This document shows, piece after piece, positions 8,593 to 33,454 of a stretch of 39,926 nucleotides of DNA. The first letter of the stretch is position 1, and every line of letters starts with the position of its first letter. The DNA is taken from contig MFTH01000013.1 of assembly GCA_001786765.1 (NCBI GenBank), positions 85,974 to 125,899 of the forward strand. The letters run 5' to 3'. Under the pieces are notes generated by a model. The model did not search any database and was not told where the DNA came from. It was given only the letters and a program-made list of their open reading frames with translations. This DNA is from Candidatus Nomurabacteria bacterium RIFCSPHIGHO2_01_FULL_37_25 (lineage in GTDB: Bacteria; Patescibacteriota; Minisyncoccia; Phycocordibacterales; UBA9973). The position numbers were made by a program, and so were the translations under genes.

Positions 8593-9564
8593 TTACAGTT
8601 TAGTCAGCGTAATCCAGTCTACCAAAGTTAAATCTTCCGCCCTTTTATTCCCCAATTCTGTCAAATATGTCAAAGTGTCTCTTTGACATACGCTTTTTAG
8701 GTTACTGGAGAGTTTTTTTCTTTTATGCGCAAAGCCAGCTTTTACTATTTTCCAGAATTTTTCTTCAAAATCTTGACTGTTCCAAGTTTTATCTTGAACA
8801 GTCGTTTTGCCTCCCTCTCCTTTATAAGGAGAGGGCTGGGGTGAGGTAAATATTTTTCGTGAGATGTTTTTTATAGCGATTATTGCTGAATTTACTTTTG
8901 GCGCCGGAGAAAAATATCTTTTATCAACTTTGGCGATCATTTTTACTTCTCCATATGCTTTGACTGAAATAGATAAGATGCTTTCTTTCTTGCCCGCCGA
9001 AGCTTTAGCGGAGGAGGGGCTATTTCCCAATATTCTTTGAGCCACTTCGTGTTGAACCATCAATACCATGCTTTCGGGTTGATTTAATCCTCCCAAAAAT
9101 TTTTTCAAAATCGCGCCGGTGATGTTGTAAGGGATATTAGCGATAATTTTATAGGTACTAGGCTTCAGGCCGTAGGCATTAGTATTAAAATCTAAAATAT
9201 CTCCGCATACTAGTATGAGAGTATTTAATTTTATCTGTTCAGCAAATTTGTTCTGCAAAATTTCATAAAGTTCTTTATCTTTCTCTATCGCTAGAACCTT
9301 GCACCTAGTCCCTAACAACTTTTCTGTCAGCGCTCCTTTACCGGGACCTATTTCTAGTATTATATCGTTCTGTTTTATTTCTCCCGCTTCAACAATCTTG
9401 CGGAGCGCTGTTTCAGATTTTAAAAAATTCTGCCCCAAAATTTTTCTTGGCACGAACTTTTTCTGGGTACGGATTTTTTGAAGCTTAAAAAATCCTGAAA
9501 TTGGCTCGCCGTCGCTCGCCAAACCCCCTCCAAAAGTTGTGCCTGCGACAAATTTTCTTTTCAT
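8593..9564 (-). CDS. rsmA: 16S rRNA m6,6A1518/1519 dimethyltransferase, carrying several palindromic insertions
   Basis: LGQNFL, ILEIGPGKGALT, IANIPYNIT, MVQHEVAQR, FSPAPKVNSA and FAHKRKKL motifs. Confidence 0.95.
   Translation of the reverse strand: MKRKFVAGTTFGGGLASDGEPISGFFKLQKIRTQKKFVPRKILGQNFLKSETALRKIVEAGEIKQNDIILEIGPGKGALTEKLLGTRCKVLAIEKDKELYEILQNKFAEQIKLNTLILVCGDILDFNTNAYGLKPSTYKIIANIPYNITGAILKKFLGGLNQPESMVLMVQHEVAQRILGNSPSSAKASAGKKESILSISVKAYGEVKMIAKVDKRYFSPAPKVNSAIIAIKNISRKIFTSPQPSPYKGEGGKTTVQDKTWNSQDFEEKFWKIVKAGFAHKRKKLSSNLKSVCQRDTLTYLTELGNKRAEDLTLVDWITLTKL
8666..8690. repeat. Perfect hairpin in-frame in rsmA
   Basis: TATGTCAAAG-TGTCT-CTTTGACATA; encodes VCQRDTLTY. Confidence 0.55.
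8775..8803. repeat. Hairpin in-frame in rsmA
   Basis: GACTGTT-c-CAAG-TTTTAT-CTTG-AACAGTC; encodes TTVQDKTWNSQ. Confidence 0.55.
8811..8847. repeat. REP-like palindrome in-frame in rsmA (family C)
   Basis: CCCTCTCCTT-TAT-AAGGAGAGGG followed by CTGGGGTGAGGT; encodes TSPQPSPYKGEG. Confidence 0.7.
8989..9020 (-). repeat. Family B palindromic insertion in rsmA
   Basis: Minus strand CCCCTCCTCCGCTAAAGCTTCGGCGGGCAAG; encodes SPSSAKASAGK. Confidence 0.75.
9437..9556 (+). repeat. Family A three-way-junction element forming the rsmA N-terminus
   Basis: Core GGTACGGATTTTTTGAAGCTTAAAAAATCCTGAA is identical to 33369-33402; long outer stem; 120 bp, in frame. Confidence 0.85.
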
Positions 9565-11726
9565 ATATAAATCGTCTTTATTCTATCTTTTTCTCCTTCT
9601 TTTTCTAATAAATCTGCTGGAATGTCGCTGATAAACTCTGATGGAGCATTAATATTGCGAGCTCCAAAAATGGTGCGAAAATTCGCAAATGATAAAAACA
9701 ATTTTTCTTTAGCGCGGGTGATTGCCACATAAAAAAGCCTGCGTTCTTCTTCCTGCGCCTCGCCGTAGCCTTGCGCGGAGGTGGAGCTATCTTCATTATG
9801 ACGCTCATGCGGGAAAAGTCCGTCTTCTAGTCCTGTGATAAAAACATGTTTAAATTCAAGCCCTTTTGAAGCGTGCACAGTCATTAACTTGACCGCATTT
9901 ATTTTTTCTTTTTTATCTTCATTAATTATTAGTGAATCTTGGTCTGAAGCTAGTGAAGCGTCTTCCAGAAGTTTTTCTATTCCACGACCGTTTTCTAGGT
10001 TGTCATATTTAAGAGCCAATGTTGCCAACTCTTTTATGTTTTCCAGTCTTTCTTTGTCTTCTTCTGTGCCAGAGGAAAGTTCATTTTCAATGCCGGACTT
10101 TTTTACCACAAATTTGATTACTTCAGATGTTTTTACTTGCTCTATTTTTTCTTTTATCTCTTCCAGTATTTTGTAAAAATTATCAATTTTAATTTTCATT
10201 TTTATGGGCAGGTTTTCGATATCATTGGCCCAGCCTTCGCCGAGGCTTCGGCGGGGCGAAGCAAAAATTTTGATTAAAGTAACTTTGCCTATGCCTCGCG
10301 CGGGGAAATTTATTATTCTTTTTATGTCTCCTAGACTATTTCTGTTTAAGGCTGCGCGCAAATATGCTAAAGTGTCTTTTATTTCTTTTCTTTCAAAAAA
10401 TTTAATTCCCAAAACTTGATACGGAATATTGTATCGTAGCATCGCTTCTTCTAAGGCTCTGGATTGGAAGTTTGCTCGATACAGAATGGCAATTTCGGAG
10501 AGAATGTTCTTTTTTTCATAAACGGAGCTGTCAGCAGGATCATCTTTTGTGGGGTCGCTGTCTCCGCGTGCTCGCGGAGCGCTGCCTCTCGGCTCGTCAG
10601 CCTGCGAGACACCCCAAAAAGATGATCCTGCTTCAGCTATTTCTAAAATCTTTGTGGCCACGAAGTCGGCTTCGTCATTTTCATCTAGCGCTTCATACAG
10701 TCCTATCTTTTCTCCCAGATCATTTTTTGTAAATAAATTCTTGTCCGGTCTGTATTTATTTTTTTTAATTACCACATTCGCCGCCTCCAAGATGTTTTGT
10801 GTTGAGCGATAATTCTCTTCTAGTAGAATTATTTTTGCATTCGGATAATCCTTCTCGAAATTTAAAATATTTTTCAAATTCGCTCCCCGCCACGAATATA
10901 TATTTTGATCTACATCACCAACTACACAAATATTTTTATTATTTTCTGCCAGCATTTTGGCCATCAAATACTGTACTTCGTTGGTGTCTTGATATTCATC
11001 TATGTGGACATATTTCCATTTTTCTTGATAAATTTTTCTAATTTGTTCATTTTCCTTCAACAATTTTGCCGCTTTTAAAAGCAAGTCGTCGAAATCCAAC
11101 GAATTTTCTTTTATTTTCTTTTTTTCATATAAATTCCAAACTTGCGCCACGATTCTCCCGAAAGAATTCGCGCTATTTATTTCTTCATAATCCGCCAAAT
11201 GCGTGAATTTTCCCTTCTCCCGCGAGATGACATTTTTTATTTTCTTCGGGTCATATTGCTTCGGGTCAATAGCAAGCTCTTTTTCCGCTTCTTTTATCAA
11301 ACTCGTGGCGTCATTCTCGTCTAGAATAGTGAAATATTTTGTCAGCCCTAAAATCCGCGCATTTTCTTTTATTATGTAAACTCCGAGAGAATGAAAAGTA
11401 GAAATAAAAGGTTCGCGATATTGCGTTCTGTCACCACGAAAATTTTCTACTGAAAATTTTCTCTGTCCGTCGTCGCCACTCCTCCCAAGGGTTCCATAAC
11501 GCAATATCGCTTTCTCTATCCGTTCGCGCATTTCTTTGGCGGCTTTATTGGTAAATGTTACAGCCAAAATATGCTCTGGCGACACGCCATTTTTTATCAG
11601 ATTTACTATTTTATGCGTTATAGTTTTAGTTTTCCCCGCTCCCGCGCCAGCTATAATAAGCAGTGGACCATCTATATGTTCCGCCGCTTCTCTTTGTTTT
11701 TTATTCAAGCCTGCCAGATGTTGCAC
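9561..11726 (-). CDS. pcrA: ATP-dependent DNA helicase PcrA/UvrD with four palindromic insertions
   Basis: AGAGAGKT, TFTNKAA, IDEYQDTN, VGDVDQNIYSWRGA, LEENYRST, TVHASKGLEF and EERRLFYVAITRA motifs. Confidence 0.95.
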   Translation of the reverse strand: MQHLAGLNKKQREAAEHIDGPLLIIAGAGAGKTKTITHKIVNLIKNGVSPEHILAVTFTNKAAKEMRERIEKAILRYGTLGRSGDDGQRKFSVENFRGDRTQYREPFISTFHSLGVYIIKENARILGLTKYFTILDENDATSLIKEAEKELAIDPKQYDPKKIKNVISREKGKFTHLADYEEINSANSFGRIVAQVWNLYEKKKIKENSLDFDDLLLKAAKLLKENEQIRKIYQEKWKYVHIDEYQDTNEVQYLMAKMLAENNKNICVVGDVDQNIYSWRGANLKNILNFEKDYPNAKIILLEENYRSTQNILEAANVVIKKNKYRPDKNLFTKNDLGEKIGLYEALDENDEADFVATKILEIAEAGSSFWGVSQADEPRGSAPRARGDSDPTKDDPADSSVYEKKNILSEIAILYRANFQSRALEEAMLRYNIPYQVLGIKFFERKEIKDTLAYLRAALNRNSLGDIKRIINFPARGIGKVTLIKIFASPRRSLGEGWANDIENLPIKMKIKIDNFYKILEEIKEKIEQVKTSEVIKFVVKKSGIENELSSGTEEDKERLENIKELATLALKYDNLENGRGIEKLLEDASLASDQDSLIINEDKKEKINAVKLMTVHASKGLEFKHVFITGLEDGLFPHERHNEDSSTSAQGYGEAQEEERRLFYVAITRAKEKLFLSFANFRTIFGARNINAPSEFISDIPADLLEKEGEKDRIKTIYI
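9753..9788 (-). repeat. Family B insertion in pcrA
   Basis: Minus strand CTCCACCTCCGCGCAAGGCTACGGCGAGGCGCAG; encodes SSTSAQGYGEAQ. Confidence 0.7.
10227..10262 (+). repeat. Family B insertion in pcrA, opposite orientation
   Basis: GGCCCAGCCTTCGCCGAGGCTTCGGCGGGGCGAAGC; encodes ASPRRSLGEGWA. Confidence 0.75.
10526..10638 (+). repeat. Family A element in-frame in pcrA
   Basis: 16-bp perfect stem AGCAGGATCATCTTTT/AAAAGATGATCCTGCT; inner hairpins CTCCGCG-TGCT-CGCGGAG and TCTC-GGCT-CGTC-AGCC-TGCGAGAC. Confidence 0.8.
11415..11510 (+). repeat. Family A-like stem element in-frame in pcrA (96 bp, 32 codons)
   Basis: Perfect 13-bp inverted repeat GCGATATTGCGTT/AACGCAATATCGC; inner hairpin GAAAATTTTC-TACT-GAAAATTTTC. 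Confidence 0.75.
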
Positions 11727-11732
11727 TTATCA

Positions 11733-11741
11733 AATATAACA
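11733..11741 (-). promoter_or_regulatory. Extended -10 (TGtTATATT) for leaderless pcrA
   Basis: 6 nt upstream of GTG 11726. Confidence 0.5.
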
Positions 11742-11761
11742 CAAGTATCCAAATATGATTA

Positions 11762-12058
11762 CTATTTAGTTAAACTAGATCTTAAATCTTCAATTTTTAT
11801 CTTTTCCGCAAGAATTTTTTTAGCTTTATCTATTTGGCTTATAGCATCCAAGCCTTGCTTTTGTATTTCCGCTATATCTTTTACACCTTTTGTTTCGTCC
11901 ATCAACGCTTCTTCAAAAAACGCAAAAGTTAATTTGTCTTGCATTTCTTTTGGGAATTTTTGCAAATTATTAATTAAAAAAATTCGAGCGCCTTCCTCGT
12001 CATTTTTTTCTACAAAAGTTAGAAATTCATTGTATAATTCTGAAAATGTATTGTTCAT
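11762..12058 (-). CDS. Hypothetical helical protein
   Basis: 98-aa ORF in a co-oriented run; no motif recognised. Confidence 0.7.
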   Translation of the reverse strand: MNNTFSELYNEFLTFVEKNDEEGARIFLINNLQKFPKEMQDKLTFAFFEEALMDETKGVKDIAEIQKQGLDAISQIDKAKKILAEKIKIEDLRSSLTK

Positions 12059-12073
12059 AATTGATTATTTTTA

Positions 12074-13135
12074 TTAGCTTAATGTATTTCTCTTGTCATT
12101 AATGTTTCCTTCAAGCCATGCCGCAAAAATGCTAGCCCAAAATCCTTTGTTTTTCTTATTTTTTTCTTCATATTTTGTCTTTTGTTCAGCAATAAACATA
12201 TCTTTAACAATATCTTGTTCAAGCGTATTTTTCCCCGCATAGTCAGAGCTTGTTTTATATCTTTCCCAGTCTTCATTGAATTCCTTTTCGTCTAAAGTAG
12301 TTTCCTTTTTTGCATCAAGGAATCCAGTCTTTTTTTCTGTTGCCACCGGCGCGCTTTCTGATAGTAATTCTTTAGACAGAGCATCTCTCATATCATCATT
12401 ACCGCTAACACTAGCAAATAGAATAGAACCAATATCGCTCTTATATTTATCTAATTCGGCATAAGAATCTTCAAGTGAACGGGCGGCAGTATTCAAATTA
12501 TTTAAAAGATCTTTATTAAGCCTATTCCACCAAAGCCCCCCATACTTTTTTGCTAGTTGCTTTATCGCTTCCTTCTTTTCAATAGGATCTTTTATTGCCA
12601 GAGTGTCTAAATATTCCTGCGAAGTAATACCATTATCATTCAATAATTTGTCAACTTTATCACTCGTTTCTTTGTCTTTTCCATTCTTAAAACTATCATG
12701 TATATCTATTGGCTTGGCAATTGCATCAAAGCTATCTTCATCATTAAAGCATATTTCTTTCAGCTGGTTGCGTATTACTTTTAAGGCTTTTTTAGGAGTA
12801 AGACTATCAAGTATTTTTGCAAAATCGGGATGCTTGCGCGCAATTTCAATTATGTTTTCTTCGGTCAGTAAATTTTCAATCCTTTCCGATTGAGCGATTT
12901 TTTTTGAAAATTCTACCCTGTATTCGCTAAGAAGTTCAAGATCATCTTTTTCAAGTTTTCCTTCCCTGATTCTTTGCCCCAGATCTTGTTGCCCATCTTT
13001 TTCAAGCAGTTTACCAAAAAGGTCAGACTTGTTTTTATCTTGCAATATTTCCGCTACAGTATGACCTACTGGAGGTGGCGTAGTATGTACTTTATTATCT
13101 TCTTTACTTTTTCTAAAATCGTCCATTATTCCCAT
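12074..13135 (-). CDS. Hypothetical charged helical protein
   Basis: 353-aa D/E/K-rich ORF with an amphipathic C-terminus (KGFWASIFAAWL). Confidence 0.75.
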   Translation of the reverse strand: MGIMDDFRKSKEDNKVHTTPPPVGHTVAEILQDKNKSDLFGKLLEKDGQQDLGQRIREGKLEKDDLELLSEYRVEFSKKIAQSERIENLLTEENIIEIARKHPDFAKILDSLTPKKALKVIRNQLKEICFNDEDSFDAIAKPIDIHDSFKNGKDKETSDKVDKLLNDNGITSQEYLDTLAIKDPIEKKEAIKQLAKKYGGLWWNRLNKDLLNNLNTAARSLEDSYAELDKYKSDIGSILFASVSGNDDMRDALSKELLSESAPVATEKKTGFLDAKKETTLDEKEFNEDWERYKTSSDYAGKNTLEQDIVKDMFIAEQKTKYEEKNKKNKGFWASIFAAWLEGNINDKRNTLS

Positions 13136-13299
13136 ATATTTATCATAAAACTTTTAATCTTAATAAGCTATTTGTAACTAAAGGCTCTCAATATTATATA
13201 AATTAATATTTTTTCTGTCAATTTTCCGTTATATTACTTGATAATTTTCAAATTATATTATACTATTTTTATCTTTTCCTCAAGAATTTTTCTAGAATT

Positions 13300-13626
13300 T
13301 TATTTAATCTGTTCGAGAACAGACAATGATTCATTTCTGAAATTTTCTGATTCTTCTCCAATAATATTCAAAAATCCAGGAACTTTTTCAAAGAAAAAAT
13401 CAAGAACCACATCTGGCATAGCGTTACTTTCTATTAATTTTTCATACTCTTCTAGGTCATTTTTTTCTAAAAGGGGCAGAACCCTGGTCAATACTGATTG
13501 GAAAATTATTTTTCCAATTCGAGATATCATTTCTTCTTGTTTATCCTCAGGTAATTTGTTGATTCCAAACAAAGTTATAATATTTTTACGAACTTCTTCT
13601 TGCGCTACTAGTGTATTTGTATTCAT
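13300..13626 (-). CDS. Small conserved CPR-type protein (DUF5663-like)
   Basis: NIITLFGINKLPEDKQEEMISRIGKIIFQSVLTRVLPLL pattern; family assignment from memory only. Confidence 0.6.
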   Translation of the reverse strand: MNTNTLVAQEEVRKNIITLFGINKLPEDKQEEMISRIGKIIFQSVLTRVLPLLEKNDLEEYEKLIESNAMPDVVLDFFFEKVPGFLNIIGEESENFRNESLSVLEQIK

Positions 13627-13656
13627 ATTTTTAATTTCATTATTAATAATTTTATA

Positions 13657-16600
13657 TTAGACTTTTATAATATAGTTTTTTACTTCATCTAATTTTCCCA
13701 TTTCAGCCGCTTTTTGCAAGGCTCGAGCAATGTAGTGTTCTGTATTTTCTTTTTTCCAGAAAAAGCTATCAGTTGGTCTAAGACCGGTGTATTCTTGAAG
13801 TTTGTGAATGTATACAAGAAAATGATTTTCCGGATCTTCTTGTTTTAGTAAATTTCCAACATTAGAATATCTTATTTTTTGCCATTCATTTATTTTCTCA
13901 CCAGAGAAAATTCCTTTCAGAATTTCTTGATGAGTTTGATAAACCCCTATTAACCCTTCCCCGCTTAAATGAAAAGGATTTCCAATAATAAATTCAGGAT
14001 GTTCCTCTAATAAACGACTTTGTTCCATAGAAATATCTGAAAAAAGTTGGCCCCGATTTATACTGAATCCAAATGTATTATCATTTTGCCCAGCGTTTCT
14101 TTGTATACCAATTCTTCCTATTTCCTCAGGTATTTCAGCATACTTTTTTAGTGTATTAGCTCTTGCTGTCTCTATGGGAGAATTATTTTTATGTTCAGGA
14201 TTAACTTTTTCAATATTATCTGAATCAAACATTGCCCCAGTGTATTTTTCTACATCTTGTCCAATTTTTGCATCATGAAAAATTATTTTCCCAGTTGTTT
14301 CATCGTACTTTAGACTTGATCCTTTCATAATGTATGCGCTTTCTGCAGTGTTGTTGGGGTCATAGAAACCTAAGTCTATCGCTTGTCTAGTAGCGTTCGT
14401 GTCTTTCAAAAATTCTTGGATATTTTTTGGTAAAACTGTAATATCTGGATATTTAGCTCTAAGATCTGCCTTGAAATCAATCAACCCTTGTATACCACCC
14501 TTTCCTTTGTCAAAAACATAACTTCCTTCTGGTGTTGTTTCTTGTGTTTCAATAGTAGATGTGTTAAAAGACGCTGGGATAACAGTTGGTGTTGTATGGT
14601 CAGAAGAAGCCCCTGGCTCATGTGTTTTTGATGGTGTAGTTGTGGGTGTTTTTGATCCTGATTCAATACCTAAAGCTTGAGCTGCATTTTTCGGTAAAGT
14701 TTCGCTTCTTTCAAATCCTCCATTTGCATTATATATATTATATGTTCCATCAGGAAATATTTTATACTTAGCTCCTCCCGATCTTTCTGCGTATATTATT
14801 TTTTTTCCATTTTCATAAGTTTCCCGTAATTTTGTTATATTTGGATCTACTTTTTTCAGTTGTGTAAGTTTTTCATCGAGAGTCTTTGTTGGGTTTTTAG
14901 CTTCAGCTGTTTCTGTCGTTTTGTCTTCAGACTCTATTTTTTCTTCTGCAGGTTTTTGACCACTAGGAGTATCTATTTCAGGTTTTGGTGGAGTTTCTGG
15001 TTCTAATTTAATACCCAAAACACTTTTCATATTATCTGCTATAGTTCCTTTGTCATAAAGTATTTTCTGGTTATTATAAGACTCATATTTTCCATCAGGA
15101 AATATTTTATGCGTATATCCATTATCAGATTTTAAAATAAAGGTTTTTTCTCCTCTTCCATTGACTCCCCCCTGTAACTCTTTTATAAATGGAAATATTT
15201 TTTTCACCTCTGTAAGTGTTTCTAGTTCTTCAGGAGACATGCTTGTTTCAGTTGAAACCGGTGGTTGTTCTGTTCTTTCTTGCTCTTGTATTGGCTGGGG
15301 TGGTTGTAAAGCTTTTTCCATTTTTGGTGGAAGGGAATCTCCTTTAGTAAATAATTTTCCATCTATATCATAAAGTTCATAAGAATTTTTATCAGGAAAT
15401 ATTTTATATATGTATTCGCTTTTTGGGTTTTTTGCAAAAAATACTTCCTCCCCGTTCTCTTCAATTTTCTGTACTTCTGTTATAAATGGATCGAATGGTT
15501 TCAATTTTGTAAGTACTTCATTTTCTTCGGGAGACATATCTCCAGTAAATACAGACTGGTCTAATGCATTAGTTTTTGTTGGCGATTCAACATTTGGTAG
15601 TTGAGTTCCTTGCCGTAATCTATTAAAGGGTGAGTTCTCAAATGCTTGATGATTTGCGTTTATTGCAGTCATTGTGCCGAGACCAACTCCAATCGTTAAA
15701 GCTCCACCAAGAATATTTTTTGCCCATTGGTATCTTTTTAATTTTTTTCCTATATCATTGTTATATGTGTTTTCATATGTATTCAAAATATCAGCTAAGT
15801 TAGTTTCATTAAAAGCATCTGAGCTGATTAAAGGACTCATTTCGTGTTTATTAGATATTTTTTCTTTTAAATCTTTTATTTTTTTATCGATAAAATAATT
15901 TAATGCTCTTCTTCCAGCAAACCCCCCAGCTGCAACACCAGCCACTATACACCCACCAAATAAAAAGGAAATACTAGTTCCTCCAAGCATTGCAAGATTT
16001 TGAATAGTGAAAATCTTATTTTTTTTGTTTTCATCCCCCTTCTTTTTAAATGACTTTAGGTGTTCTATGAGTTCCGAACCTGTTTTTGAAGTTAGTGCCA
16101 TATTCAACCCTACAGCAGCGCTCACTCGAGCACCCAATCTAGCTGAAACCATAAGCGCTGATGATGAACCAATGCCGAGAAGCGCCGCAGAAGCTAATGT
16201 TGCTCCCCCAATCAAGGCAGTACTAGAAAAAACCTTGAACGCTTTTCCTTTTTTAGTTTTTTCTAAATTAGCCCACCATTTATTGGTTTTAGCGAGAGGT
16301 CTTTCTAGAAGACCAGTTTTAGCGATAGCTTCAGCATCAAAATCTTCTTTTGCTTTTAAGAATAGTTCTCGCGCTAATTCTTCTTTTTTTTCTGTGGAAA
16401 GACCAGGTTGTTTATTTAATTCTTCTTTGATCCTTTGCGCTATAGCTACTGTGTCCATCTTTGATACTGGTTTTATAACAGGATCTGTTTCATCAATTTC
16501 TGACTTACTCTTTTTTGTTCTAGCTTTTTCAAGAGAAGCTTTTAATTTTTCAATGTCTTCTGCTCTTTTACGTCTCTTTTCTTTTAATTCCTCAAGAGCT

Positions 16601-16710: not shown

Positions 16711-16720
16711 ATATGCTTAA

Positions 16721-16834
16721 TTATTTTTTCAATGCCTTTTGCATTAGAGCCAACTCAGGATTAGTCCTCGCAATAAGTTCTTTGTTGTCTCTGTCACTTT
16801 CGTCTAGTTTTTCAAGGGCTTCTTTAATTTTCAT
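16721..16834 (-). CDS. 37-aa ORF, possibly a frameshifted tail of 16860..17366
   Basis: MKIKEALEKLDESDRDNKELIARTNPELALMQKALKK. Resembles the IEEANKDNKEALA module of neighbouring genes and is separated from the upstream ORF by A-runs. Confidence 0.4.
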   Translation of the reverse strand: MKIKEALEKLDESDRDNKELIARTNPELALMQKALKK

Positions 16835-16859
16835 CTTTTTTCTTTTTTAATAATTTCTT

Positions 16860-24764: not shown

Positions 24765-24812
24765 AAAATTTATAACATCAGCTTAATATTTATTTTTTAA
24801 AAATATCTGAAT

Positions 24813-24886: not shown

Positions 24887-24929
24887 TCTTCGCGAGGCCA
24901 AAGCCTCGCTATGACGAGGCGGAGGCCCG
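24881..24929 (+). repeat. Family B element at the tRNA-Pro 5' end, flanked by a GGCCCG direct repeat
   Basis: GGCCCG-TCTTC-GCGAGGC-CAAA-GCCTCGC-TATGACGAGGCGGA-GGCCCG. Confidence 0.65.
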
Positions 24930-24953
24930 ATCCCCTAAAGTTAAATAACTATA

Positions 24954-25394: not shown

Positions 25395-25424
25395 ATTTGT
25401 CTTGTCTAAGCTTTGGTAATCGTG

Positions 25425-25557
25425 AATTACGAAACTCGTCGAAGGCATGTCTTTTTTAGGGGGTTTCGAGGCTGTCGAGCCGAGAACTTCAGGATTTTTC
25501 AAGCTTCGAAAAATCCGTACCCTAGAAAAAGACATGCCTAGAAAGAGTTTCGGAATT
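25425..25557 (-). repeat. Family A element upstream of yraN
   Basis: Minus strand GGGTACGGATTTTTCGAAGCTTGAAAAATCCTGAAGTTCTCGGCTCGACAGCCTCGAAACCCC inside the stem AGGCATGTCTTTTT/AAAAAGACATGCCT. Confidence 0.85.
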
Positions 25558-25559
25558 TA

Positions 25560-25810
25560 AAGTTGGTAAAAGCTTGTTACTATCAAAGTTTCACGAGTAA
25601 CACAATAATATATGTTTCACGTGAAATCTATATATAAATTTAATGTCTTTTATTAAAATATCTTTATTTTACAATATATTCTTGACAAAATAATTCTTTA
25701 GGACAATCTTGTAATATGTCCTTTATAAACATTATTAACATAGTTATCCACAGATTTTCTATAAATTAGCTTTGTTTTACTTAATGATAAAAAATTCTTT
25801 AGGTCACTAA
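25560..25810. other. Candidate replication origin region
   Basis: Very AT-rich intergenic DNA; perfect DnaA box TTATCCACA at 25744-25752; adjacent parS sites; genes to the left are mostly on the minus strand. Confidence 0.45.
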
Positions 25811-25816
25811 ACTTTT

Positions 25817-25890
25817 TGGTGCGGCCAAGGGGAATCGAACCCCTATCTCAATCTTGGCAAGATCGTATTTTACCACTAAATTATGGCCGC
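25817..25890 (-). tRNA. tRNA-Gly(GCC), CCA encoded
   Basis: GCGGCCATAATTTAGTGGTAAAATACGATCTT-GCC-AAGATTGAGATAGGGGTTCGATTCCCCTTGGCCGCACCA; upstream TTGCAT-N17-TATAAT on the minus strand. Confidence 0.93.
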
Positions 25891-26022
25891 ATTTTTAAAA
25901 CACTGTTTTTATTATAATATTTTATTTTAAATAATGCAATTATAAAATTAGCTTGTAAAATAAGCATTATTTACTAATTTTATAAAAAATAGTATAATAC
26001 AGTGATATTATAAAATAATTTT

Positions 26023-26094
26023 GCACCCGTAGTGAAATGGATATCATATCCGCCTTCGAAGCGGTCGTTGGGGGTTCGAATCCCTCCGGGTGCA
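26023..26094 (+). tRNA. tRNA-Arg(TCG), CCA not encoded
   Basis: GCACCCGTAGTGAAATGGATATCATATCCGCCT-TCG-AAGCGGTCGTTGGGGGTTCGAATCCCTCCGGGTGCA. Confidence 0.9.
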
Positions 26095-26104
26095 CTAAGT
26101 AATA

Positions 26105-27661
26105 GTGGAACAAGATACTAAAAATTTAATATCAAAAATACCAAAAGAAGTTTCATATGTAACAGACACGCTTGAAAAGGCTGGTTTTGAAGCGTATTTA
26201 GTGGGTGGTTGTGTGCGAGATCTTTTGATGGAGATAGAACCTAAAGATTGGGACATTACAACAAATGCTAAACCCGAAGAGATTATGAGTCTTTTTGAGA
26301 AAACTATTTATGAAAATACTTTTGGAACTGTAGGGGTATGCCTGCCCGCCAAAGTAAAAGAGGGTGTTTTACGTGAAACAGTTAATATTAATGTTTCACA
26401 AGAAACATCTAAGAGTAATGTTACTCATGAAACAGCAGAATACATGATTATTGAGGTTACGCCTTATAGAATTGAAGCAAAATATAGTGATTTTAGACAT
26501 CCAGATAAGCTAAAATTTAGCAACAAGCTCTCTGATGACCTAAAAAGACGAGATTTTACAGTGAATGCTATAGTACTTAATTCTAAAGGACATATAACGG
26601 ACATGTTTGATGGTCTAAAGGACATAAAGGACAAAACTTTACGGACAGTAGGGGAGCCAGATCATAGATTTCAGGAAGATGCTTTGAGGATGCTGAGAGC
26701 TGTTCGTTTTTCTACGCAATTAAATTTCTCAATTTCTCATGAAACGATGGAAAGTATTATAAAAAATTCTGAACTAATAAAAAAAATTTCAGCAGAAAGA
26801 ATTCGTGATGAGTTTGTAAAAATACTTATGTCAGAAAACCCAACAAGCGGGGTCATAATGTTACAAAAATTTGGTTTGCTTAAAAATATTATTCCAGAGC
26901 TTGAAGAGGGGATAGGGTGTGAACAAGGCGGAGCCCATTTATACAATGTGTTTGAGCATTTATTGCTTGCTTTACAACACTCAGTTGAAAAAAAATGGTC
27001 TTTAATAATAAGACTTTCTGCGCTCTTTCATGATATTGGGAAACCGAGAACTAGACGTCCCGGAGAAAAAAAAGCATATACTTTTTATGGTCATGAAGTT
27101 GTCGGAGCGAGAATGGTAAAAAAAATAATGGAGAGATTAAAATTCCCAAGCAAAGAAATTGAGTTAGTGGAAAAACTTGTCGGTAATCATATGTTTTTTT
27201 CTGACACCAACCTCATCACGCTTTCAGCAGTACGCAGAATTATTGCTAAGATGGGCAAAGAGAATATTTGGACTCTGATGAATGTCCGAGAGTGCGACCG
27301 AGTGGGAATGAAAAAAAAAGAAGCGCCTTATCGATTAAGAAAATATTTTGCAATGATAGAAGAAGCCTTAAGAGATCCGATATCTGTCAGCCAGCTAAAA
27401 ATCAACGGGGAATTTATGATTAAAGAGCTCGGCATCAAACCAGGTCCTCGGATGGGGTGGATTCTTCATGCGCTTTTAGAAGAAGTTCTTGATGCGCCAG
27501 AGAAAAACACAGTTGAACACTTGAGTGAACTTGTTAAATCGTTAAACACGCTCAATGATAGTGAACTTAGGGTTTTAGGAGAAAGAGGAAAAGAAAAAAA
27601 AGAGGAATTAGAAGAAGGAGAAATAGAAAAACTTCACACTAAACACGGAGTTAGGAAGTAA
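26105..27661 (+). CDS. cca: CCA tRNA nucleotidyltransferase with HD domain
   Basis: YLVGGCVRD, KDWDITT, DLKRRDFTVNA, RFQEDALRMLRAVRF, ERIRDE and LFHDIGK motifs. Confidence 0.92.
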   Translation: MEQDTKNLISKIPKEVSYVTDTLEKAGFEAYLVGGCVRDLLMEIEPKDWDITTNAKPEEIMSLFEKTIYENTFGTVGVCLPAKVKEGVLRETVNINVSQETSKSNVTHETAEYMIIEVTPYRIEAKYSDFRHPDKLKFSNKLSDDLKRRDFTVNAIVLNSKGHITDMFDGLKDIKDKTLRTVGEPDHRFQEDALRMLRAVRFSTQLNFSISHETMESIIKNSELIKKISAERIRDEFVKILMSENPTSGVIMLQKFGLLKNIIPELEEGIGCEQGGAHLYNVFEHLLLALQHSVEKKWSLIIRLSALFHDIGKPRTRRPGEKKAYTFYGHEVVGARMVKKIMERLKFPSKEIELVEKLVGNHMFFSDTNLITLSAVRRIIAKMGKENIWTLMNVRECDRVGMKKKEAPYRLRKYFAMIEEALRDPISVSQLKINGEFMIKELGIKPGPRMGWILHALLEEVLDAPEKNTVEHLSELVKSLNTLNDSELRVLGERGKEKKEELEEGEIEKLHTKHGVRK

Positions 27662-27768
27662 CTGATTGGATATATTTTACTTTACTAAACTAAAGTAATT
27701 AATAAACTTCCTGCTGGTAGCAACTTTCATAGTAAACCACTTCTGGACTGTTTGGGGATTGTGAAATT

Positions 27769-28785
27769 CTACCATTTTGTTTTTCCAGTATTAATAATTA
27801 AAATTTTCTTGTCTTTGGAAATTTTGTCTTTTATTTGTAGAAGCAAACCTAGCCCAGCAATCCCAGATGGTTCGCAATTTATTTTCTGTTCGTTTGCGAT
27901 TTTAATTGCTTCATCTAAATACTTCTCTTCCAAATTATAAACTTGGCTCATTTCTCCAGTGAGACCAGTGAATCTATAAAACTTAATCCATTGTTTTGAA
28001 TAGTTAGCAAATGGTAAAAATGGCGCATATAATTTGTCCATTTTGCTTTTTGGATTTGTAGTCTTTGCTCCTAAAATAGATGTTTTTTTTAAAATTTTAA
28101 TACTTCCCTTAAATCTAGGGTCATTTATTTTATAATTCAGTTCTTTTTTAATTATATTCATTATATTTTCATAAAGTTGTCCTGTGCCAAAAGGTACGAA
28201 AATATAATCCGCATTGCTGTTTATGATTTCGTAACTTAACCAATCATAAAATCTAACCGTTGGGTCGTATGCTTCGTTTGAAGTAATATCAAAACCGTCT
28301 TCATTTTCAGTTAATCGTAAAATTTCCTTCCAATCAAATGTTTTTCTACTTAAATCTTCTAGGAAAATTCTACAACCTACTTTTTTAAGATTATCTGTAA
28401 TATTAGGATCAGTTTGAGAATCCACCAATACATGCAAATTCGGCAGCCCATATTTTTTAAGTTGTGTTTGTATTGCCAGGGCGGCAGAACCGGAACTTAA
28501 AATAGACAGGATGGGAAGTTTATCTATTTTGCCAATCTTTTTAGATTTGAGAAATTCTTTGTAGGTAACAATCATCTCCCAAGCCATTCTGTCTTTGTGT
28601 GTTCCGGTCTTGTTATGACTTTCGTCTTTCAGCCAAACATTAGAAAATCCAGGCACTTCAATTTTGTATGTTGGTGTAGCAGGGAATTTTGGGTCATCAG
28701 GAGGGAATTCAGGTTTGTCTGGATTATTTTCTGATGCCACTACGATAGAGTTTAAAATCGCCTCTTCTTTTTCAGTTAAAGCCAT
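27769..28785 (-). CDS. PLP-dependent fold-type II enzyme (threonine synthase/dehydratase-like)
   Basis: LKDESHNKTGTHKDR (PLP lysine), SSGSAALA, VPFGTG, CEPSGIAG and INTG. Confidence 0.8.
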   Translation of the reverse strand: MALTEKEEAILNSIVVASENNPDKPEFPPDDPKFPATPTYKIEVPGFSNVWLKDESHNKTGTHKDRMAWEMIVTYKEFLKSKKIGKIDKLPILSILSSGSAALAIQTQLKKYGLPNLHVLVDSQTDPNITDNLKKVGCRIFLEDLSRKTFDWKEILRLTENEDGFDITSNEAYDPTVRFYDWLSYEIINSNADYIFVPFGTGQLYENIMNIIKKELNYKINDPRFKGSIKILKKTSILGAKTTNPKSKMDKLYAPFLPFANYSKQWIKFYRFTGLTGEMSQVYNLEEKYLDEAIKIANEQKINCEPSGIAGLGLLLQIKDKISKDKKILIINTGKTKW

Positions 28786-28803
28786 ATTTTAATTTTAAAA
28801 AGT

Positions 28804-29436
28804 TTAGTTTTCAATTGGAGTAAATACTTTTAACATATTCTCAAAAAGTTGAGTGCTATACGATGAAAGATTAAAAATTACCGCCAAGGTAAGTAAAGTA
28901 AGTGAGGTGGGTATATTCCAAAAACAAATCGCTATGGCAATAATAGCAAAAACGACGGGTACTAATGTGCGGATGGTACTGCCACGGATTTCCTTTTTAC
29001 TGATTTCTGGATTTTTAATGTGTTCTGAATAAAGCACATATCTGCGCATCCAATATAAAGACAAACCAATTAGAATAATGTGTGTGGCAAATATTACGAT
29101 GGACAACTCATTTTTTGGAAAGTCGCCAAGAACTCTGGCGGAAAAAGGAATAAGAGATACTAACATGAAAAATAGCGCGTTTATATTAGTGAGCATACTG
29201 TCCACATTTTTTGCATAAACAGAAACGAAAAAGTGATGCGCTCTCCAATAAGTGAAAAGAAGAGAAAAAGACAATAAATAACTTAAGAATAATGGAAGTA
29301 AGTTCTCGACTTCAAGCCAGAGGTCGTGATTGTTCACGGGTTCAAAAATAATTGGTACTTTTATTTCAAAAACCAAAATTGTCATTACAATAGCAAAAAT
29401 CCCGTCTGATAACTGGTCTAATCTTGTGTGGCTCAT
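28804..29436 (-). CDS. TMEM175-family K+ channel
   Basis: RLDQLSDGIFAIVMTIL signature, YW..HH and 6 TM helices. Start set at MSHTRL (29436); the GTG extension lies in a family A element. Confidence 0.88.
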   Translation of the reverse strand: MSHTRLDQLSDGIFAIVMTILVFEIKVPIIFEPVNNHDLWLEVENLLPLFLSYLLSFSLLFTYWRAHHFFVSVYAKNVDSMLTNINALFFMLVSLIPFSARVLGDFPKNELSIVIFATHIILIGLSLYWMRRYVLYSEHIKNPEISKKEIRGSTIRTLVPVVFAIIAIAICFWNIPTSLTLLTLAVIFNLSSYSTQLFENMLKVFTPIEN

Positions 29437-29451
29437 GCTAGAAATAATAGC

Positions 29452-29574
29452 ACAAAACTCTTTTTTGGTATAGTTTTTGCTAGACACACATAAAAATCTG
29501 CTGATTTTTTGCTATGCTCGGCCCGTCCGGCCTGCGCAATGTCTCTCAAAAACTACACCTGCGACGAGTTTTGT
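29452..29574 (+). repeat. Family A element overlapping the xth stop codon
   Basis: Stems ACAAAACTC/GAGTTTTGT, TAGTTTTTG/CAAAAACTA and AGACA/TGTCT; hairpins AAAAATC-TGCT-GATTTTT and GC-TC-GGCC-CGTCC-GGCC-TG-CGC. Confidence 0.75.
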
Positions 29575-30368
29575 AATTCCAGCCAAATCGGACAATGGTC
29601 CGAACCCATATAGTTTTGTATCGTGCCTGCGTTTTTTATTCTTAGGCCACCTTCGCCATGCTTCGGCGAGCCAAGCATTAATTTTTTGTCAGCAAAAAAA
29701 TAGTCTATACGCCAGCCTACATTCCTAGCTCTAGCTCCTGTTTTCATATCCCAATAAGTATAAATGTCTTTTTTATTCGGATTTAATTCGCGCCAAACAT
29801 CTAGAAAATTATTTTTTATAACTTTAGTAATCCAAGCGCGCTCTATTGGCAAGAAACCGGTGTTTTCTTCATTTGCTTTTGGACGAGCTAGGTCTATAGC
29901 TGTATGGGCAGTATTTATGTCACCACAGAAAATCACATTTTCACCATTTTTCCTTAATTTTAAAATAAATTTTAAAAACGCTTCATAAAATTCTAATTTG
30001 TATTTTAATCTATGCGGACCTTGACCGCCATTTGGATAATAACCATTTATTAATGTGAAGTTTTTGAATTTTGCGCCGACTAATCTGCCTTCATCGTCAA
30101 ATTTTTTTATACCCATACCATAAAAAACTTCCCTCGGTTTTTCTTTGGAATAAATTGCCACTCCACTATAACCCTTTTTTTCTTTTGGATGTGAAAAAAA
30201 GGAATAATAATTTTTCACATTGCGCGCTTCCTCCGGCAATTGTTCTGGCGTGGCTTTTGTTTCCTGCAAGCAAACAATATCCGGCTTGTATTTTTCAAAA
30301 AGCGGACTGAAAAATCCTTGTTTTGCCGTCGCCCGCAGACCGTTTGTGTTCCAAGAAATTATTTTCAC
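29553..30368 (-). CDS. xth: Exodeoxyribonuclease III (AP endonuclease)
   Basis: ISWNTNGLRA, CLQETK, GYSGVA, CGDINTAH, GWRIDY and GSDHCP motifs. Confidence 0.95.
   Translation of the reverse strand: MKIISWNTNGLRATAKQGFFSPLFEKYKPDIVCLQETKATPEQLPEEARNVKNYYSFFSHPKEKKGYSGVAIYSKEKPREVFYGMGIKKFDDEGRLVGAKFKNFTLINGYYPNGGQGPHRLKYKLEFYEAFLKFILKLRKNGENVIFCGDINTAHTAIDLARPKANEENTGFLPIERAWITKVIKNNFLDVWRELNPNKKDIYTYWDMKTGARARNVGWRIDYFFADKKLMLGSPKHGEGGLRIKNAGTIQNYMGSDHCPIWLELQNSSQV
29645..29676 (+). repeat. Family B insertion in-frame in xth
   Basis: GGCCACCTTCGCCATGCTTCGGCGAGCCAAGC; encodes LGSPKHGEGG. Confidence 0.75.
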
Positions 30369-33131: not shown

Positions 33132-33166
33132 AAACACCTAACATTTTTTTGAATAACATAAATTAC

Positions 33167-33194
33167 TTGCTTTTCAGCTCAAAAATGCTACTAT
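33167..33194 (+). promoter_or_regulatory. Putative pnp promoter
   Basis: TTGCTT-N16-TACTAT with TG extension. Confidence 0.5.
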
Positions 33195-33210
33195 AAAAAT
33201 TAGTTTATTA

Positions 33211-33336
33211 GTCCCGACGTAAAGTTGGGACCCTGATTTATAAAGCGTCGGGGTTAATCCGTTCGCGTCTAGACATAAAGTAGTGTTTCCCAGAAAAAAA
33301 TATTTGGTGAAACAACACTGTAGTCTGGATACGAAC
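33211..33336 (+). promoter_or_regulatory. Structured pnp leader (twin hairpins plus long irregular stem)
   Basis: GTCCCGAC-GTAAA-GTTGGGAC; CCCTGAT/GTCGGGG; GTTCG-CG-TCTAGAC...GTCTGGA-TA-CGAAC. Confidence 0.5.
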
Positions 33337-33344
33337 TTAGACAC

Positions 33345-33454
33345 ATTCATAAAATATAATTTTCTTTCGGTACGGATTTTTTGAAGCTTAAAAAATCCTG
33401 AAGTTCTCGGCTCGCCAGCCTCGAAACCCCTTCAGAAAATTATATTTTATGAAT
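33345..33454 (+). repeat. Family A element immediately upstream of pnp
   Basis: Perfect 21-bp inverted repeat ATTCATAAAATATAATTTTCT/AGAAAATTATATTTTATGAAT around the conserved core. Confidence 0.85.

What the first reader, a model, noticed from the sequence alone, without database searches (positions are those of the whole stretch)
9437..33454. Dispersed ~110-135 bp three-way-junction element (family A) with covarying structure, inside and next to housekeeping genes
Seen: five copies at 9437-9556(+), 10526-10638(+), 25425-25557(-), 29452-29574(+) and 33345-33454(+). Each has a long outer stem, hairpin 1 with an NGCT loop, and hairpin 2 with a TC/TC(G) internal loop and a CGNC loop. Stem sequences differ while pairing is kept: GGATTTTTT/AAAAAATCC vs GGATTTTTC/GAAAAATCC vs CTCCGCG/CGCGGAG vs AAAAATC/GATTTTT, and GGCT/AGCC vs GGCC/GGCC. 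Three copies also share an outer internal loop (AAAYTY-TTYYTW-GG ... CC-TKCGAC-RARTTT). Copies lie both sense (yraN, pnp) and antisense (rsmA, pcrA, xth) to genes. They are translated in frame in RsmA and PcrA and supply the xth stop codon. No transposase is in the window. Inference: a non-autonomous mobile element recognised by shape as ssDNA or RNA, comparable to Rickettsia palindromic elements or REP/REPIN elements moved by HUH transposases. I cannot match it to a named family.
Basis: partly seen in the sequence, partly recalled or inferred. Interest (0 to 1): 0.88.

Follow-up and report, generated by a model that had tools for sequence, protein, structure and literature searches.

The report
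Mobile three-way-junction palindromic repeat family
A small T-shaped hairpin of selfish DNA has spread to about fifty places in this tiny CPR bacterial genome and through its relatives, even sitting in frame inside essential genes, and the way its arms are copied from neighbouring host DNA is unusual.

Summary
All five copies fold as three-way junctions, and the family has at least 52 cores in this 726-kb genome. It occurs in 43 of 60 other genomes searched in the genus, 7 of 40 other families of the order, and 1 of 150 in a phylum sample. No Rfam family matches. Covariation is strong (94.9% of cells paired against 75.5% shuffled).

It is mobile DNA, not a REPIN. One subfamily (20 copies, including window copy 3) has shared terminal inverted repeats and 7-bp target-site duplications. 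Y1/RAYT genes do not co-occur with the element (rho -0.05). No DDE transposase was found.

Most copies elsewhere have the same core with copy-specific, self-complementary arms and no direct repeats. In the clean cases (purQ, murE) one arm is native host sequence and the other is its inverted copy. Empty orthologous sites exist for PcrA, pnp, mraZ-rsmH, purQ-purF and xth-TMEM175. The core occurs in both orientations at the same site.

The best reading is an RPE-like selfish palindrome whose arms are built, homogenised and flipped by replication template switching. That also explains the covariation without selection on an RNA.

The PcrA in-frame insert is confirmed, RsmA is ambiguous, and the xth tail and stop are confirmed.

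The parts
9437..9556 (+). Copy 1: core with a degenerate c3-like shell. It lies between the pcrA stop and the conserved LGQNFL motif of rsmA, antisense to rsmA, and forms codons 3-42 of the rsmA ORF if the ATG at 9564 is used.
   Evidence: Fold z -3.8; model R1 92.4 bits at 9454-9539; translation and Pfam start at residue 40. G032 and G002 also carry a copy in the pcrA-rsmA spacer.
10526..10638 (+). Copy 2: GC-rich (0.60) variant inserted in frame in pcrA, antisense to the gene. It encodes about 38 extra residues (…SSFWGVSQADEPRGSAPRARGDSDPTKDDPADSS…).
   Evidence: Fold z -6.7; R1 27.5 bits; gap against PDB 1pjr at query residues 369-410; 7 of 41 orthologues are empty, 10 have the core antisense, 9 sense; 4 of 6 frames are open.
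25413..25419 (.). Left target-site duplication (TTGGTAA) of copy 3.
   Evidence: Read directly; TSD analysis.
25420..25562 (-). Copy 3: full-length c3-type element. It comprises a 5-nt end, the terminal inverted repeat AATTACGAAACTC, the shell, the core, and the mirror half. It is one of 20 near-identical copies (95-99% identity). It lies in the 5' leader or start of the yraN (UPF0102) ORF.
   Evidence: blastn 95-99% identity to 19 other loci; fold z -8.8; R1 101.6 bits; ends and TSD; Pfam domain starts at residue 63 of the ORF.
25563..25569 (.). Right target-site duplication (TTGGTAA) of copy 3.
   Evidence: Read directly.
29452..29580 (+). Copy 4: c4-type variant with a different hairpin-1 sequence and a c3-like shell, in the xth-TMEM175 spacer. 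It supplies the last 7 codons (LQNSSQV) and the TAG stop (29553-29555) of xth. The conserved TMEM175 ATG is at 29436, outside the element.
   Evidence: Fold z -6.4; R1 17.1 bits, E 0.0047; sequence. Per, xth of G056 and G052 ends …IWLEI*, G052 has no core in this spacer, and G056 has a different copy there.
33345..33454 (+). Copy 5: standard core with copy-specific AT-rich arms, 16 nt upstream of the pnp start and sense to pnp.
   Evidence: Fold z -6.8; R1 107.7 bits. The orthologous sites are empty in G013, G059 and G052 and filled in G056 and G051, with arms that differ by paired complementary changes.

Best explanation
Family A is a lineage-restricted family of selfish, non-coding palindromic DNA elements, functionally like Rickettsia palindromic elements. 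It is built around a conserved core of about 86 nt that folds, on either strand, into a T-shaped three-way junction.

It spreads in two ways.
1. A subfamily carries a defined outer shell with terminal inverted repeats (…TG-AATTACGAAACTC…). It transposes like a classical MITE, making 7-bp target-site duplications. This implies a DDE-type transposase supplied in trans, which was not found in this assembly.
2. Most copies, especially in related genomes, consist of the same core flanked by arms unique to each copy, with no direct repeats. In these, one arm is pre-existing host sequence and the other is its inverted copy.

I infer that arms are created, extended, kept complementary and occasionally flipped together with the core by replication template switching (fold-back copying) at the hairpin. 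This process, not selection on an RNA shape, would produce the 'covarying' stems.

Insertions survive only where they are tolerated: tiny intergenic spacers, gene termini and surface loops of proteins. So the same permissive sites are hit or retained repeatedly, and GC-richer stop-free variants persist in frame in PcrA and three other long ORFs.

Shown: mobility, TIR/TSD, empty sites, host-derived arms in a few clean cases, both core orientations at one site, lack of Y1 association.
Inferred: the transposase type, template switching as the mechanism, and absence of a host function.
For: Copy number and spread:
- 52 loci and 50 full-length model hits in the own genome.
- 43 of 60 genus genomes, 7 of 40 other families of the order, 1 of 150 in a phylum sample.
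- The exact 37-nt core occurs in at least 115 stretches of public MAGs.

Classical transposition of the c3 subfamily:
- 20 full-length copies at 95-99% identity.
- 16 of 20 have a 6-9-bp direct repeat at the expected place, against 5 of 380 mismatched flank pairs.

Empty orthologous sites:
- PcrA: 7 of 41.
- pnp upstream: G013, G059, G052.
- mraZ-rsmH: 6 genomes.
- purQ-purF: 17 of 20.
- xth-TMEM175: G052.

The shell is separable from the core:
- The terminal repeat is present 8+8 times in G051 but at control level in G056, G032, G047 and G042, which hold 17-28 cores each.
- Of 78 copies with the identical 37-mer, only 4 share an outer 18-mer with another copy and only 5 have the terminal repeat.
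- 0 of 40 non-c3 copies have a direct repeat of 5 nt or more at the palindrome boundary.

Host-derived arms:
- The left arm of the purQ copy is the native, conserved purQ 3' end (…NAIEYFTR*, against …NA(I/V)(N/K)YF(K/R)K* in 20 genomes). The right arm is its 16-nt inverted copy, which is absent from the 17 empty sites.
- murE of G000 and of G046 each have their own last codons and stop mirrored in the far arm.
- In the xth-TMEM175 spacer, G052 holds one arm only and G056 holds that arm + core + its inverted copy.

Flips:
- The PcrA core is antisense in 10 and sense in 9 orthologues at the same site. Supported sister pairs differ: G013/G018 at 98% and G052/G056 at 99%.
- At mraZ-rsmH, G030 and G056 have similar arms but opposite core orientation.
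- c3 copies are 10 AB, 8 BA and 2 AA relative to their asymmetric ends.

Literature (passages read): template switching between inverted-repeat arms gives arm homogenisation and spacer inversion (PMC8604942). It also creates perfect stems, multi-base compensatory changes, loop inversions and stem extension (PMC8794818).

No strand bias: among intergenic copies between co-directional genes, 13 are sense and 8 antisense (my tally).
Against: - No transposase with matching ends was found. rve and DDE_Tnp_1 are absent from G000; Transposase_mut, DDE_3, ISL3 and IS1595 are absent from G000 and G051. No long element bounded by the terminal repeat exists in G000 or five high-copy genomes. Only six Pfam families were tried, and multi-copy IS elements are often left out of MAG assemblies.
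- Template switching is inferred from patterns; no event was caught between near-identical strains.
- Nativeness of an arm could be judged in only about four cases. For xth-TMEM175 the 'one-arm' state of G052 could equally be a deletion remnant, because that 24-mer resembles the family's inner arm.
- c3 copies keep intact direct repeats and show no outward palindrome growth. So arm building is not a fast general after-effect of any hairpin; it seems tied to the second mode of insertion, whose enzyme or trigger is unknown.
- The identical 37-nt core in very many species could also mean purifying selection on the core, that is, a host or element function, which I cannot exclude.
- All c3 flips involve the whole palindrome, never only the core. 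Random switch points would not obviously predict this.
- The alignment used for covariation was fitted to the model.
Confidence: 0.6

Rival explanations
1. REPIN-like element moved by a RAYT/IS200-type HUH (Y1) transposase that recognises the folded single strand.
For: The genome has three intact RAYT-like Y1 ORFs of 208, 221 and 243 aa. NCBIfam REP_Tyr_transpos matches them at E 7e-19 to 2.5e-9, all below the family cut-off. 47 of 60 genus genomes have Y1 matches. The T-shaped hairpin with two orientations resembles substrates of HUH nickases (recalled analogy: parvovirus terminal repeats). In the about four cases that could be judged, the native arm lies 5' of the core on one particular strand, which hints at a strand-specific intermediate.
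Against: The c3 subfamily has terminal inverted repeats and 7-bp direct duplications. The Y1 genes sit in tight gene contexts without flanking copies. Spearman between Y1 and element counts is -0.05 (p 0.68). 10 of 43 element-bearing genomes have no Y1 match, including G056 (28 copies), G032 (20) and G047 (19). 14 of 17 element-free genomes have Y1, with G003 at 11 and G014 at 10. Related genomes are not independent, and the assemblies are incomplete.
Confidence: 0.1
2. A functional structured RNA or DNA motif (ribozyme, small RNA, terminator/stabiliser or protein-binding cruciform), kept by selection on the core, with the outer stem free to vary as long as it pairs.
For: Strong pairing conservation and many double changes in all four helices. 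An identical 37-nt core occurs across many species. A decayed copy in G025 still keeps all three helices with different sequence. Copies lie close to gene ends.
Against: No Rfam family matches, including the three-way-junction ribozymes, even at E <= 10 on a 221-nt search. There is no orientation bias relative to transcription (13 sense, 8 antisense). The element sits in frame in either orientation inside PcrA. Presence or absence and orientation differ between sister species. Many orthologous sites are empty. 20 near-identical copies with target duplications indicate transposition. No RNA run held the stretch, so expression is untested.
Confidence: 0.15
3. An ordinary IS-derived MITE family only. 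Every copy was inserted with its own arms by a transposase, and the copy-specific arms reflect old age plus compensatory evolution or intra-element conversion.
For: c3 and c5a copies have shared terminal repeats. Three orthologous pnp-upstream copies differ by paired complementary changes in c5a-like arms. At the pnp site the empty G052 has neither arm. Many 'unique' arms still share an inner AAATATCAAC-like stretch.
Against: Copies whose cores are identical to the consensus over 37 nt or more have unrelated outer arms (74 of 78), so arms and core would have to evolve at wildly different rates. The far arm of the purQ copy is an inverted copy of conserved coding sequence, and likewise at murE. 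No direct repeats flank these copies (0 of 40; 6 of 78 against control 2 of 78).
Confidence: 0.15

Closest known systems
Rickettsia palindromic elements (RPEs)
   Same: Palindromic repeats of about 100-150 bp in a reduced genome, with no transposase of their own. They are found in intergenic DNA and repeatedly in frame inside unrelated housekeeping genes, apparently compatible with protein function (RPE facts from passages of the MITE review PMC10969869; here).
   Different: A different phylum (MAG titles: Nomurabacteria/Paceibacterota). The core is a three-way junction with copy-specific arms. There is evidence that arms are copied from host flanks and that the core flips at a site. One subfamily has clear 7-bp duplications. 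Sequence relatedness to RPEs was not tested.
IS-derived prokaryotic MITEs (for example QMITE2 of Coxiella, with 7-9-bp direct repeats and 23-29-bp terminal repeats)
   Same: For the c3 subfamily: small, non-coding, AT-rich, multi-copy, with terminal inverted repeats, 7-bp direct repeats and a stable fold (MITE features from PMC10969869 passages and a figure legend).
   Different: No cognate IS was found. Most family members lack shared ends and direct repeats. The conserved part is the centre, not the termini.
REP/REPIN elements with RAYT transposases
   Same: Dispersed, hairpin-forming extragenic repeats, and RAYT-like genes are present in the genome.
   Different: No co-occurrence or adjacency. 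The element is larger and branched, and one subfamily has target duplications. The REPIN definition is recalled, not taken from a call.
Template-switch (quasi-palindrome) mutation products
   Same: Arm homogenisation, one-step creation or extension of perfect stems, and spacer or loop inversion are the reported signatures (PMC8604942 and PMC8794818, passages). The same three signatures are seen here.
   Different: The reported cases are mostly short (arms around 10-16 bp, spacers of a few bp) and not tied to a dispersed mobile core. Here a core of about 60-86 nt appears to seed 15-30-nt arms at dozens of loci.
T-shaped terminal repeats of parvoviruses/AAV (flip/flop), and mitochondrial double-hairpin elements
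   Same: Analogy only. Both have an outer stem plus two small hairpins, and two inverted configurations of the palindrome relative to fixed flanks (c3: 10 AB against 8 BA). They are small double-hairpin repeats that also invade genes.
   Different: The AAV facts are recalled. For double-hairpin elements I saw only a search listing. No Rep-like nickase link and no homology were tested.

Membership tests
MITE (c3-type subfamily, 20 copies including window copy 3) | Terminal inverted repeats shared by the copies | tested here: met
   YYNTG-AATTACGAAACTC … GAGTTTCGTAATT-CANRR in all 20.
MITE (c3-type subfamily, 20 copies including window copy 3) | Direct target-site duplication of fixed length | tested here: met
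   16 of 20 have a 6-9-bp (mostly 7-bp) repeat within 2 nt of the expected place; control 5 of 380. Window copy: TTGGTAA on both sides.
MITE (c3-type subfamily, 20 copies including window copy 3) | A cognate autonomous IS with the same ends | tested here: not met
   No pair of terminal repeats more than 160 nt apart in G000 or in five high-copy genomes. Six DDE Pfam families absent. The assemblies are MAGs, so absence is not proven.
MITE (family A as a whole) | Shared terminal inverted repeats and direct repeats | tested here: not met
   5 of 78 copies have the terminal repeat and 4 of 78 share an outer 18-mer. 0 of 40 have direct repeats; 6 of 78 against control 2 of 78.
REP/REPIN-RAYT system | Association with a RAYT (Y1 HUH) gene: flanking copies or co-occurrence | tested here: not met
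   The three Y1 ORFs are not flanked by copies. Spearman -0.05; contingency 33/10/14/3.
REP/REPIN-RAYT system | Short GC-rich REP hairpins, singly or as inverted pairs, without target duplication (definition recalled) | tested here: not met
   The element is an 86-133-nt branched structure. The c3 subfamily has 7-bp duplications.
Rickettsia palindromic elements | Palindromic repeats of about 100-150 bp, repeatedly inserted in frame in protein genes | tested here: met
   PcrA. 4 of 52 cores lie deep inside long open ORFs. The feature is taken from PMC10969869 passages.
Rickettsia palindromic elements | Sequence homology to an RPE family | not tested
   No RPE sequences were at hand, so the behaviour is alike but membership is not claimed.
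Any Rfam family (including three-way-junction self-cleaving ribozymes) | Covariance-model match | tested here: not met
   Gathering mode on the window finds only 4 tRNAs. E-value mode on copy 3 finds only chance miRNA-hairpin matches, the best at E 0.021 and 22 bits against a gathering score of 100.
Template-switch products at inverted repeats | Arm homogenisation, stem extension by copying the opposite flank, spacer inversion | tested here: met
   Paired changes in orthologous arms. Host-sequence copies in the far arm. Opposite core orientation at one site. These are patterns only; the process itself is not observable with these tools.

The most novel reading that the evidence does not exclude
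The core is a new kind of mobile hairpin that needs no terminal repeats. It enters a site as one defined strand and, at insertion, primes fold-back synthesis that copies 8-30 nt of the adjoining host DNA in inverted orientation. This is an 'inverted target-site duplication', so each copy builds its own arms. When such a core lands beside a transposon end, the same copying would create a terminal-repeat pair in one step, giving birth to a conventional MITE such as the c3 and c5a shells with 7-bp duplications. The mover could be replication copy-choice alone or an unrecognised enzyme that reads the T-shaped junction.
Probability: 0.3. Interest if true: 0.85.

Novelty: new variant of a known kind. 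Interest (0 to 1): 0.72.

Why it matters
- CPR/Patescibacteria genomes are usually described as streamlined and poor in mobile DNA. Here a single repeat family makes up roughly 1% of a 726-kb genome (my estimate: about 52 copies of 86-133 nt). It is active across a genus and repeatedly remodels essential proteins (PcrA, MurE, xth and mraZ termini) and tiny intergenic spacers.
- My literature searches found no description of MITE- or RPE-like elements in this group (the 2024 MITE review does not mention it).
- The family is a natural test bed for two general questions. First, how perfect long stems and 'compensatory' changes arise without selection on RNA (template switching). Second, how MITEs are born.
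- It is a warning for covariation-based RNA discovery: very strong covariation statistics can come from palindromic DNA dynamics.
- In practice these repeats break assemblies and inflate ORFs at gene starts, so they matter for annotating CPR genomes.

Tried and rejected
Hammerhead or other known ribozyme: I suspected one from the three-way junction and junction motifs. I rejected it because no Rfam model matches, even at E <= 10.

DDE_Tnp_1 'hit' in G000: it lies out of frame with five stops inside a pilM-like gene and has no terminal repeat nearby, so it is spurious.

Sequencing runs: 20 runs were listed, and only DNA metagenomes hold half or more of the sampled words. The two RNA-labelled runs hold 0.05. 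Laying contigs of four DNA runs on 9601-29600 gave contigs that stop at the repeats and summed depths that cannot be interpreted. So there is no evidence on expression, splicing or strain-level presence or absence.

Viral contigs (exact 37-mer) and the phage collection (blastn): no match.

First G056/G052 comparison: the G052 contig ends before the region, so it was uninformative. The second stretch worked.

RNAalifold on the MAFFT alignment recovered only 12 pairs because of one-column slips, so I used a model-based alignment instead.

My greedy arm-extension script stops at bulges and under-measures arms, for example at the purQ copy. The ungapped version gave a median of only 6 pairs. Arm lengths quoted in this report are read by eye.

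The careful PcrA tree did not finish. The quick tree has weak support (3 of 38 inner branches starred), and my regex mislabelled G047 as 'sense' when it is 'other'. Only the three starred sister pairs are used.

The idea that the core targets pre-existing palindromes: not supported at purQ-purF, mraZ-rsmH or pnp, where the empty sites have no such palindrome.

Polarity (native arm 5' of the core on the GGTAC strand): n is about 4 and one case is ambiguous, so it is reported as a hint only.

Supplementary files were not needed.

Claims that touch the unpublished genome G060: its rows in the genus tallies, one 'sense' PcrA insert (L058), one empty purQ site (L138) and the G060/G039 sister pair. 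No conclusion depends on them.

Full report
1. The observation

Each folds alone into an outer stem with two hairpins, with z-scores of -3.8 to -8.8, and none of 200 shuffles folded as well. Copies 1, 3 and 4 share the outer internal loop.

The window is contig C13:85974-125899 of a 726-kb, 17-contig, 98%-complete genome. blastn with the five copies finds 52 loci, and 47 of these give a two-branch multiloop in the MFE fold (two are misfolds). A covariance model from 13 copies finds 50 full-length hits at E <= 0.006. Copy 4 and C16:23693 fall just outside that list.

No Rfam family matches. Gathering mode finds four tRNAs only. Permissive mode on copy 3 finds only chance miRNA hairpins.

2. Anatomy and subfamilies

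- The c3 type has 20 copies of 133-153 nt at 95-99% identity and includes window copy 3. Its layout is a 5-nt end, the terminal repeat AATTACGAAACTC, a shell with an asymmetric internal loop, the core, and the mirror half.
- The c5a type shares the terminal repeat but has a different AT-rich shell.
- The c4/c2 types have a quite different hairpin-1 sequence that still pairs, and they are richer in GC.
- Four copies carry a nested 20-nt GC palindrome in the hairpin-1 loop.

3. Mobility

16 of 20 c3 copies are flanked by a 6-9-bp, mostly 7-bp, direct repeat exactly outside the 5-nt ends, against 5 of 380 for mismatched flank pairs. For window copy 3 the repeat is TTGGTAA, at 25413-25419 and 25563-25569.

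Empty orthologous sites exist for every site I examined:
- PcrA: 7 of 41.
- pnp upstream: G013, G059 and G052.
- mraZ-rsmH: six genomes.
- purQ-purF: 17 of 20.
- xth-TMEM175: G052.

4. Distribution

- Genus: 43 of 60 other genomes, with 1-31 copies under strict filters.
- Other families of the order: 7 of 40.
- Phylum sample: 1 of 150, with two weak copies.
- It is absent from viral contigs and phage records.

5. Who moves it

- The genome has three intact RAYT-like Y1 ORFs, but they sit in tight gene contexts without copies beside them.
- Over 60 genus genomes, Y1 and element counts are uncorrelated: rho -0.05; contingency 33/10/14/3.
- G056 (28 copies), G032 (20) and G047 (19) have no Y1 match. 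G003 (11 Y1), G014 (10) and G008 (8) have no element.

Terminal repeats plus fixed-length direct repeats point to a DDE-type enzyme (established knowledge of transposition; the comparison with particular IS families is recalled). None of six Pfam DDE families is present (the one weak hit is spurious). No long element with these ends exists in G000 or five high-copy genomes.

6. The core is separable from its arms

The G000 terminal repeat is common in G051 (8+8) but at control level in G056, G032, G047 and G042, which have 17-28 cores.

In 20 copies fetched from G056 and G032, almost every copy has its own 15-30-nt near-perfect palindromic arms. Conservation fades about 22-24 nt outside the junction.

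Among 78 copies from many MAGs that share the identical 37-mer, 4 share an outer 18-mer with any other copy and 5 have the terminal repeat. Direct repeats are not enriched: 0 of 40, and 6 of 78 against control 2 of 78.

7. Where the arms come from

- purQ: PurQ ends …IFKNA(I/V)(N/K)YF(K/R)K* in 20 genus genomes, and purF starts within about 0-17 nt in 17 of them. In G000 the native end (…NAIEYFTR*, GAATACTTTACAAGATAG) is the left arm. The right arm is an inverted copy of about 16 of those nucleotides, after which the native spacer and purF resume.
- murE: G000 (…KRALA*) and G046 (…GALAKT*) each have their own last codons and stop mirrored in the far arm. G055, G056, G018 and G020 carry other variants there, and most genomes are empty.
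- mraZ-rsmH: the filled genomes have the mraZ stop inside the left arm.
- xth-TMEM175: this is the spacer that holds window copy 4. G052 has no core but has a 24-nt sequence directly after the xth stop. G056 has that sequence, the core, and an inverted copy of the sequence on the other side. Because that 24-mer resembles the family's inner arm, G052 could instead be a deletion remnant.
- pnp: the empty G052 site has neither arm, so whole elements with arms also insert.
- Polarity: in the four cases where the native arm can be judged, it lies 5' of the core on the strand that reads GGTAC. With n = 4 this is a hint only.

8. Concerted arms and flips

- Three orthologous pnp-upstream copies (G000, G056, G051) differ in their arms by paired complementary changes.
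- The G030 and G056 mraZ-rsmH copies have about 75%-similar arms. Each is perfectly self-complementary, and the cores are in opposite orientations.
- In PcrA the same core is antisense in 10 and sense in 9 orthologues at one position, and both reading directions are open.
- PcrA insert states are scattered on the tree: 25 changes against a shuffled mean of 25.0.
- Supported sister pairs differ. G013 is antisense and G018 sense (98%). G052 is antisense and G056 has another insert (99%).
- In c3 copies the whole palindrome lies in either orientation relative to the asymmetric 5-nt ends (10, 8 and 2). Each hairpin-1 variant occurs in both classes.

9. Covariation

On 48 copies, 94.9% of cells pair against 75.5% in shuffles and 42-66% in slid controls. 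22 of 25 pairs have double changes, 212 cells against 48.5 in shuffles.

Its meaning is open. Template switching between inverted-repeat arms is reported to homogenise arms, invert spacers, create perfect stems in one event and extend stems (PMC8604942 and PMC8794818, passages read). Those are exactly the patterns in sections 7 and 8.

10. Gene context in this genome

Of 52 cores:
- 4 lie deep in long open ORFs, all GC-richer variants: PcrA and ORFs of 384, 859 and 422 aa.
- About 6 lie at ORF starts.
- 3 lie at ORF ends.
- About 37 are intergenic: 21 between co-directional genes (13 sense, 8 antisense), 11 between convergent genes and 5 between divergent genes (my tally).

The PcrA copy has 4 of 6 frames open, the c3 type 2 of 6 and the c5a type 0 of 6.

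11. Verdict

- It is best filed as an RPE-like or MITE-like selfish palindrome, a new variant of a known kind.
- The REPIN/HUH mechanism is not supported.
- The unusual part is a conserved branched core with arms copied from host flanks, and flips at a site. That part is supported by a handful of clean cases and by large-sample patterns.
- How this second mode of insertion starts is unknown.
- Literature searches found no prior description in this bacterial group.

Noticed in passing
window 11414-11507 (pcrA residues about 74-104): PcrA has a second extra segment of about 25 residues relative to PDB 1pjr (chain 80-85), outside family A. It may be another in-frame insert.
   Followed up: no
window 10228-10255 and 8993-9020: GC-rich palindromes inside pcrA and rsmA coding sequence, mutually complementary (inverted pair I25, 79%). 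They look like a second family of small GC hairpins in an AT-rich genome. Similar GC hairpins sit at empty sites in G013, G059 and G052 and beside some copies.
   Followed up: partly
window 33253-33340: A block of about 88 nt just upstream of copy 5 and pnp is conserved at roughly 80-90% in G013, G059, G056 and G051, with a variable centre, like a structured leader. No Rfam family matches it. The only match lies further upstream: a weak sub-threshold JA02 match at 33138-33232, E 0.011.
   Followed up: partly
G000 C10:70247-70399, C10:109533-109643, C8:637-759, C15:36495-36646: Four copies of different subfamilies carry the same nested 20-nt GC palindrome (CCTGCCTGCCGGCAGGCAGG or a close variant) at the same point of the hairpin-1 loop. 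Either a mini-palindrome targets the loop or a variant has been spread by recombination.
   Followed up: no
G000 C10:97347-97973 (+), C12 (L003:1267-1932, -), C7 (L004:1264-1995, -): Three intact RAYT-like Y1 (HUH) ORFs of 208-243 aa in a 726-kb genome, below the NCBIfam REP_Tyr_transpos cut-off. Such genes number 0-11 per genome in the genus and are unrelated to family A counts.
   Followed up: partly
G000 C10:109652-110530 (murE, L306:253-1131, -): MurE carries a low-complexity in-frame extra segment (…ARNAFSTPASNASRNDAGWADAGGKNNSSNSSGREPD…). This suggests yet another inserted element in an essential gene.
   Followed up: no
PcrA insert site in L052, L056, L061, L079, L080; also L046, L055, L057, L062, L064, L068-L071, L081: The same PcrA loop holds other inserts in other species: a c4-like variant (…ERTLGRSDGDGQRKFSAENFRGES…) in 5, and unrelated or double inserts in 10. 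ORF lengths range from 644 to 773 aa.
   Followed up: partly
window 17400-20273 and 20379-22052: Two neighbouring long ORFs share repeated segments of about 80% identity (19105-19233 with 20401-20529; 18532-18635 with 20155-20258), so they look like paralogous genes in tandem.
   Followed up: no
window 23368-23438, 24816-24886, 25820-25890 (all -), 26023-26094 (+): Four tRNA genes surround copy 3. Summed contig depth in metagenome runs also spikes at the tRNA and repeat bins.
   Followed up: no
G000 C10:590-760: A c5a copy is followed by a duplicated piece of flank plus terminal repeat (…TTATTACTCTGAATTACGA… twice). This suggests a tandem or nested insertion near a contig end.
   Followed up: no
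G056 site 3 (L295 about 15746-15782) against G052:C1:62980-63125: Where G052 has a c4/C14-like element, G056 has 22 nt containing a small near-palindrome (AGAAAACTATTTTCT). This may be a footprint left by loss of an element.
   Followed up: no
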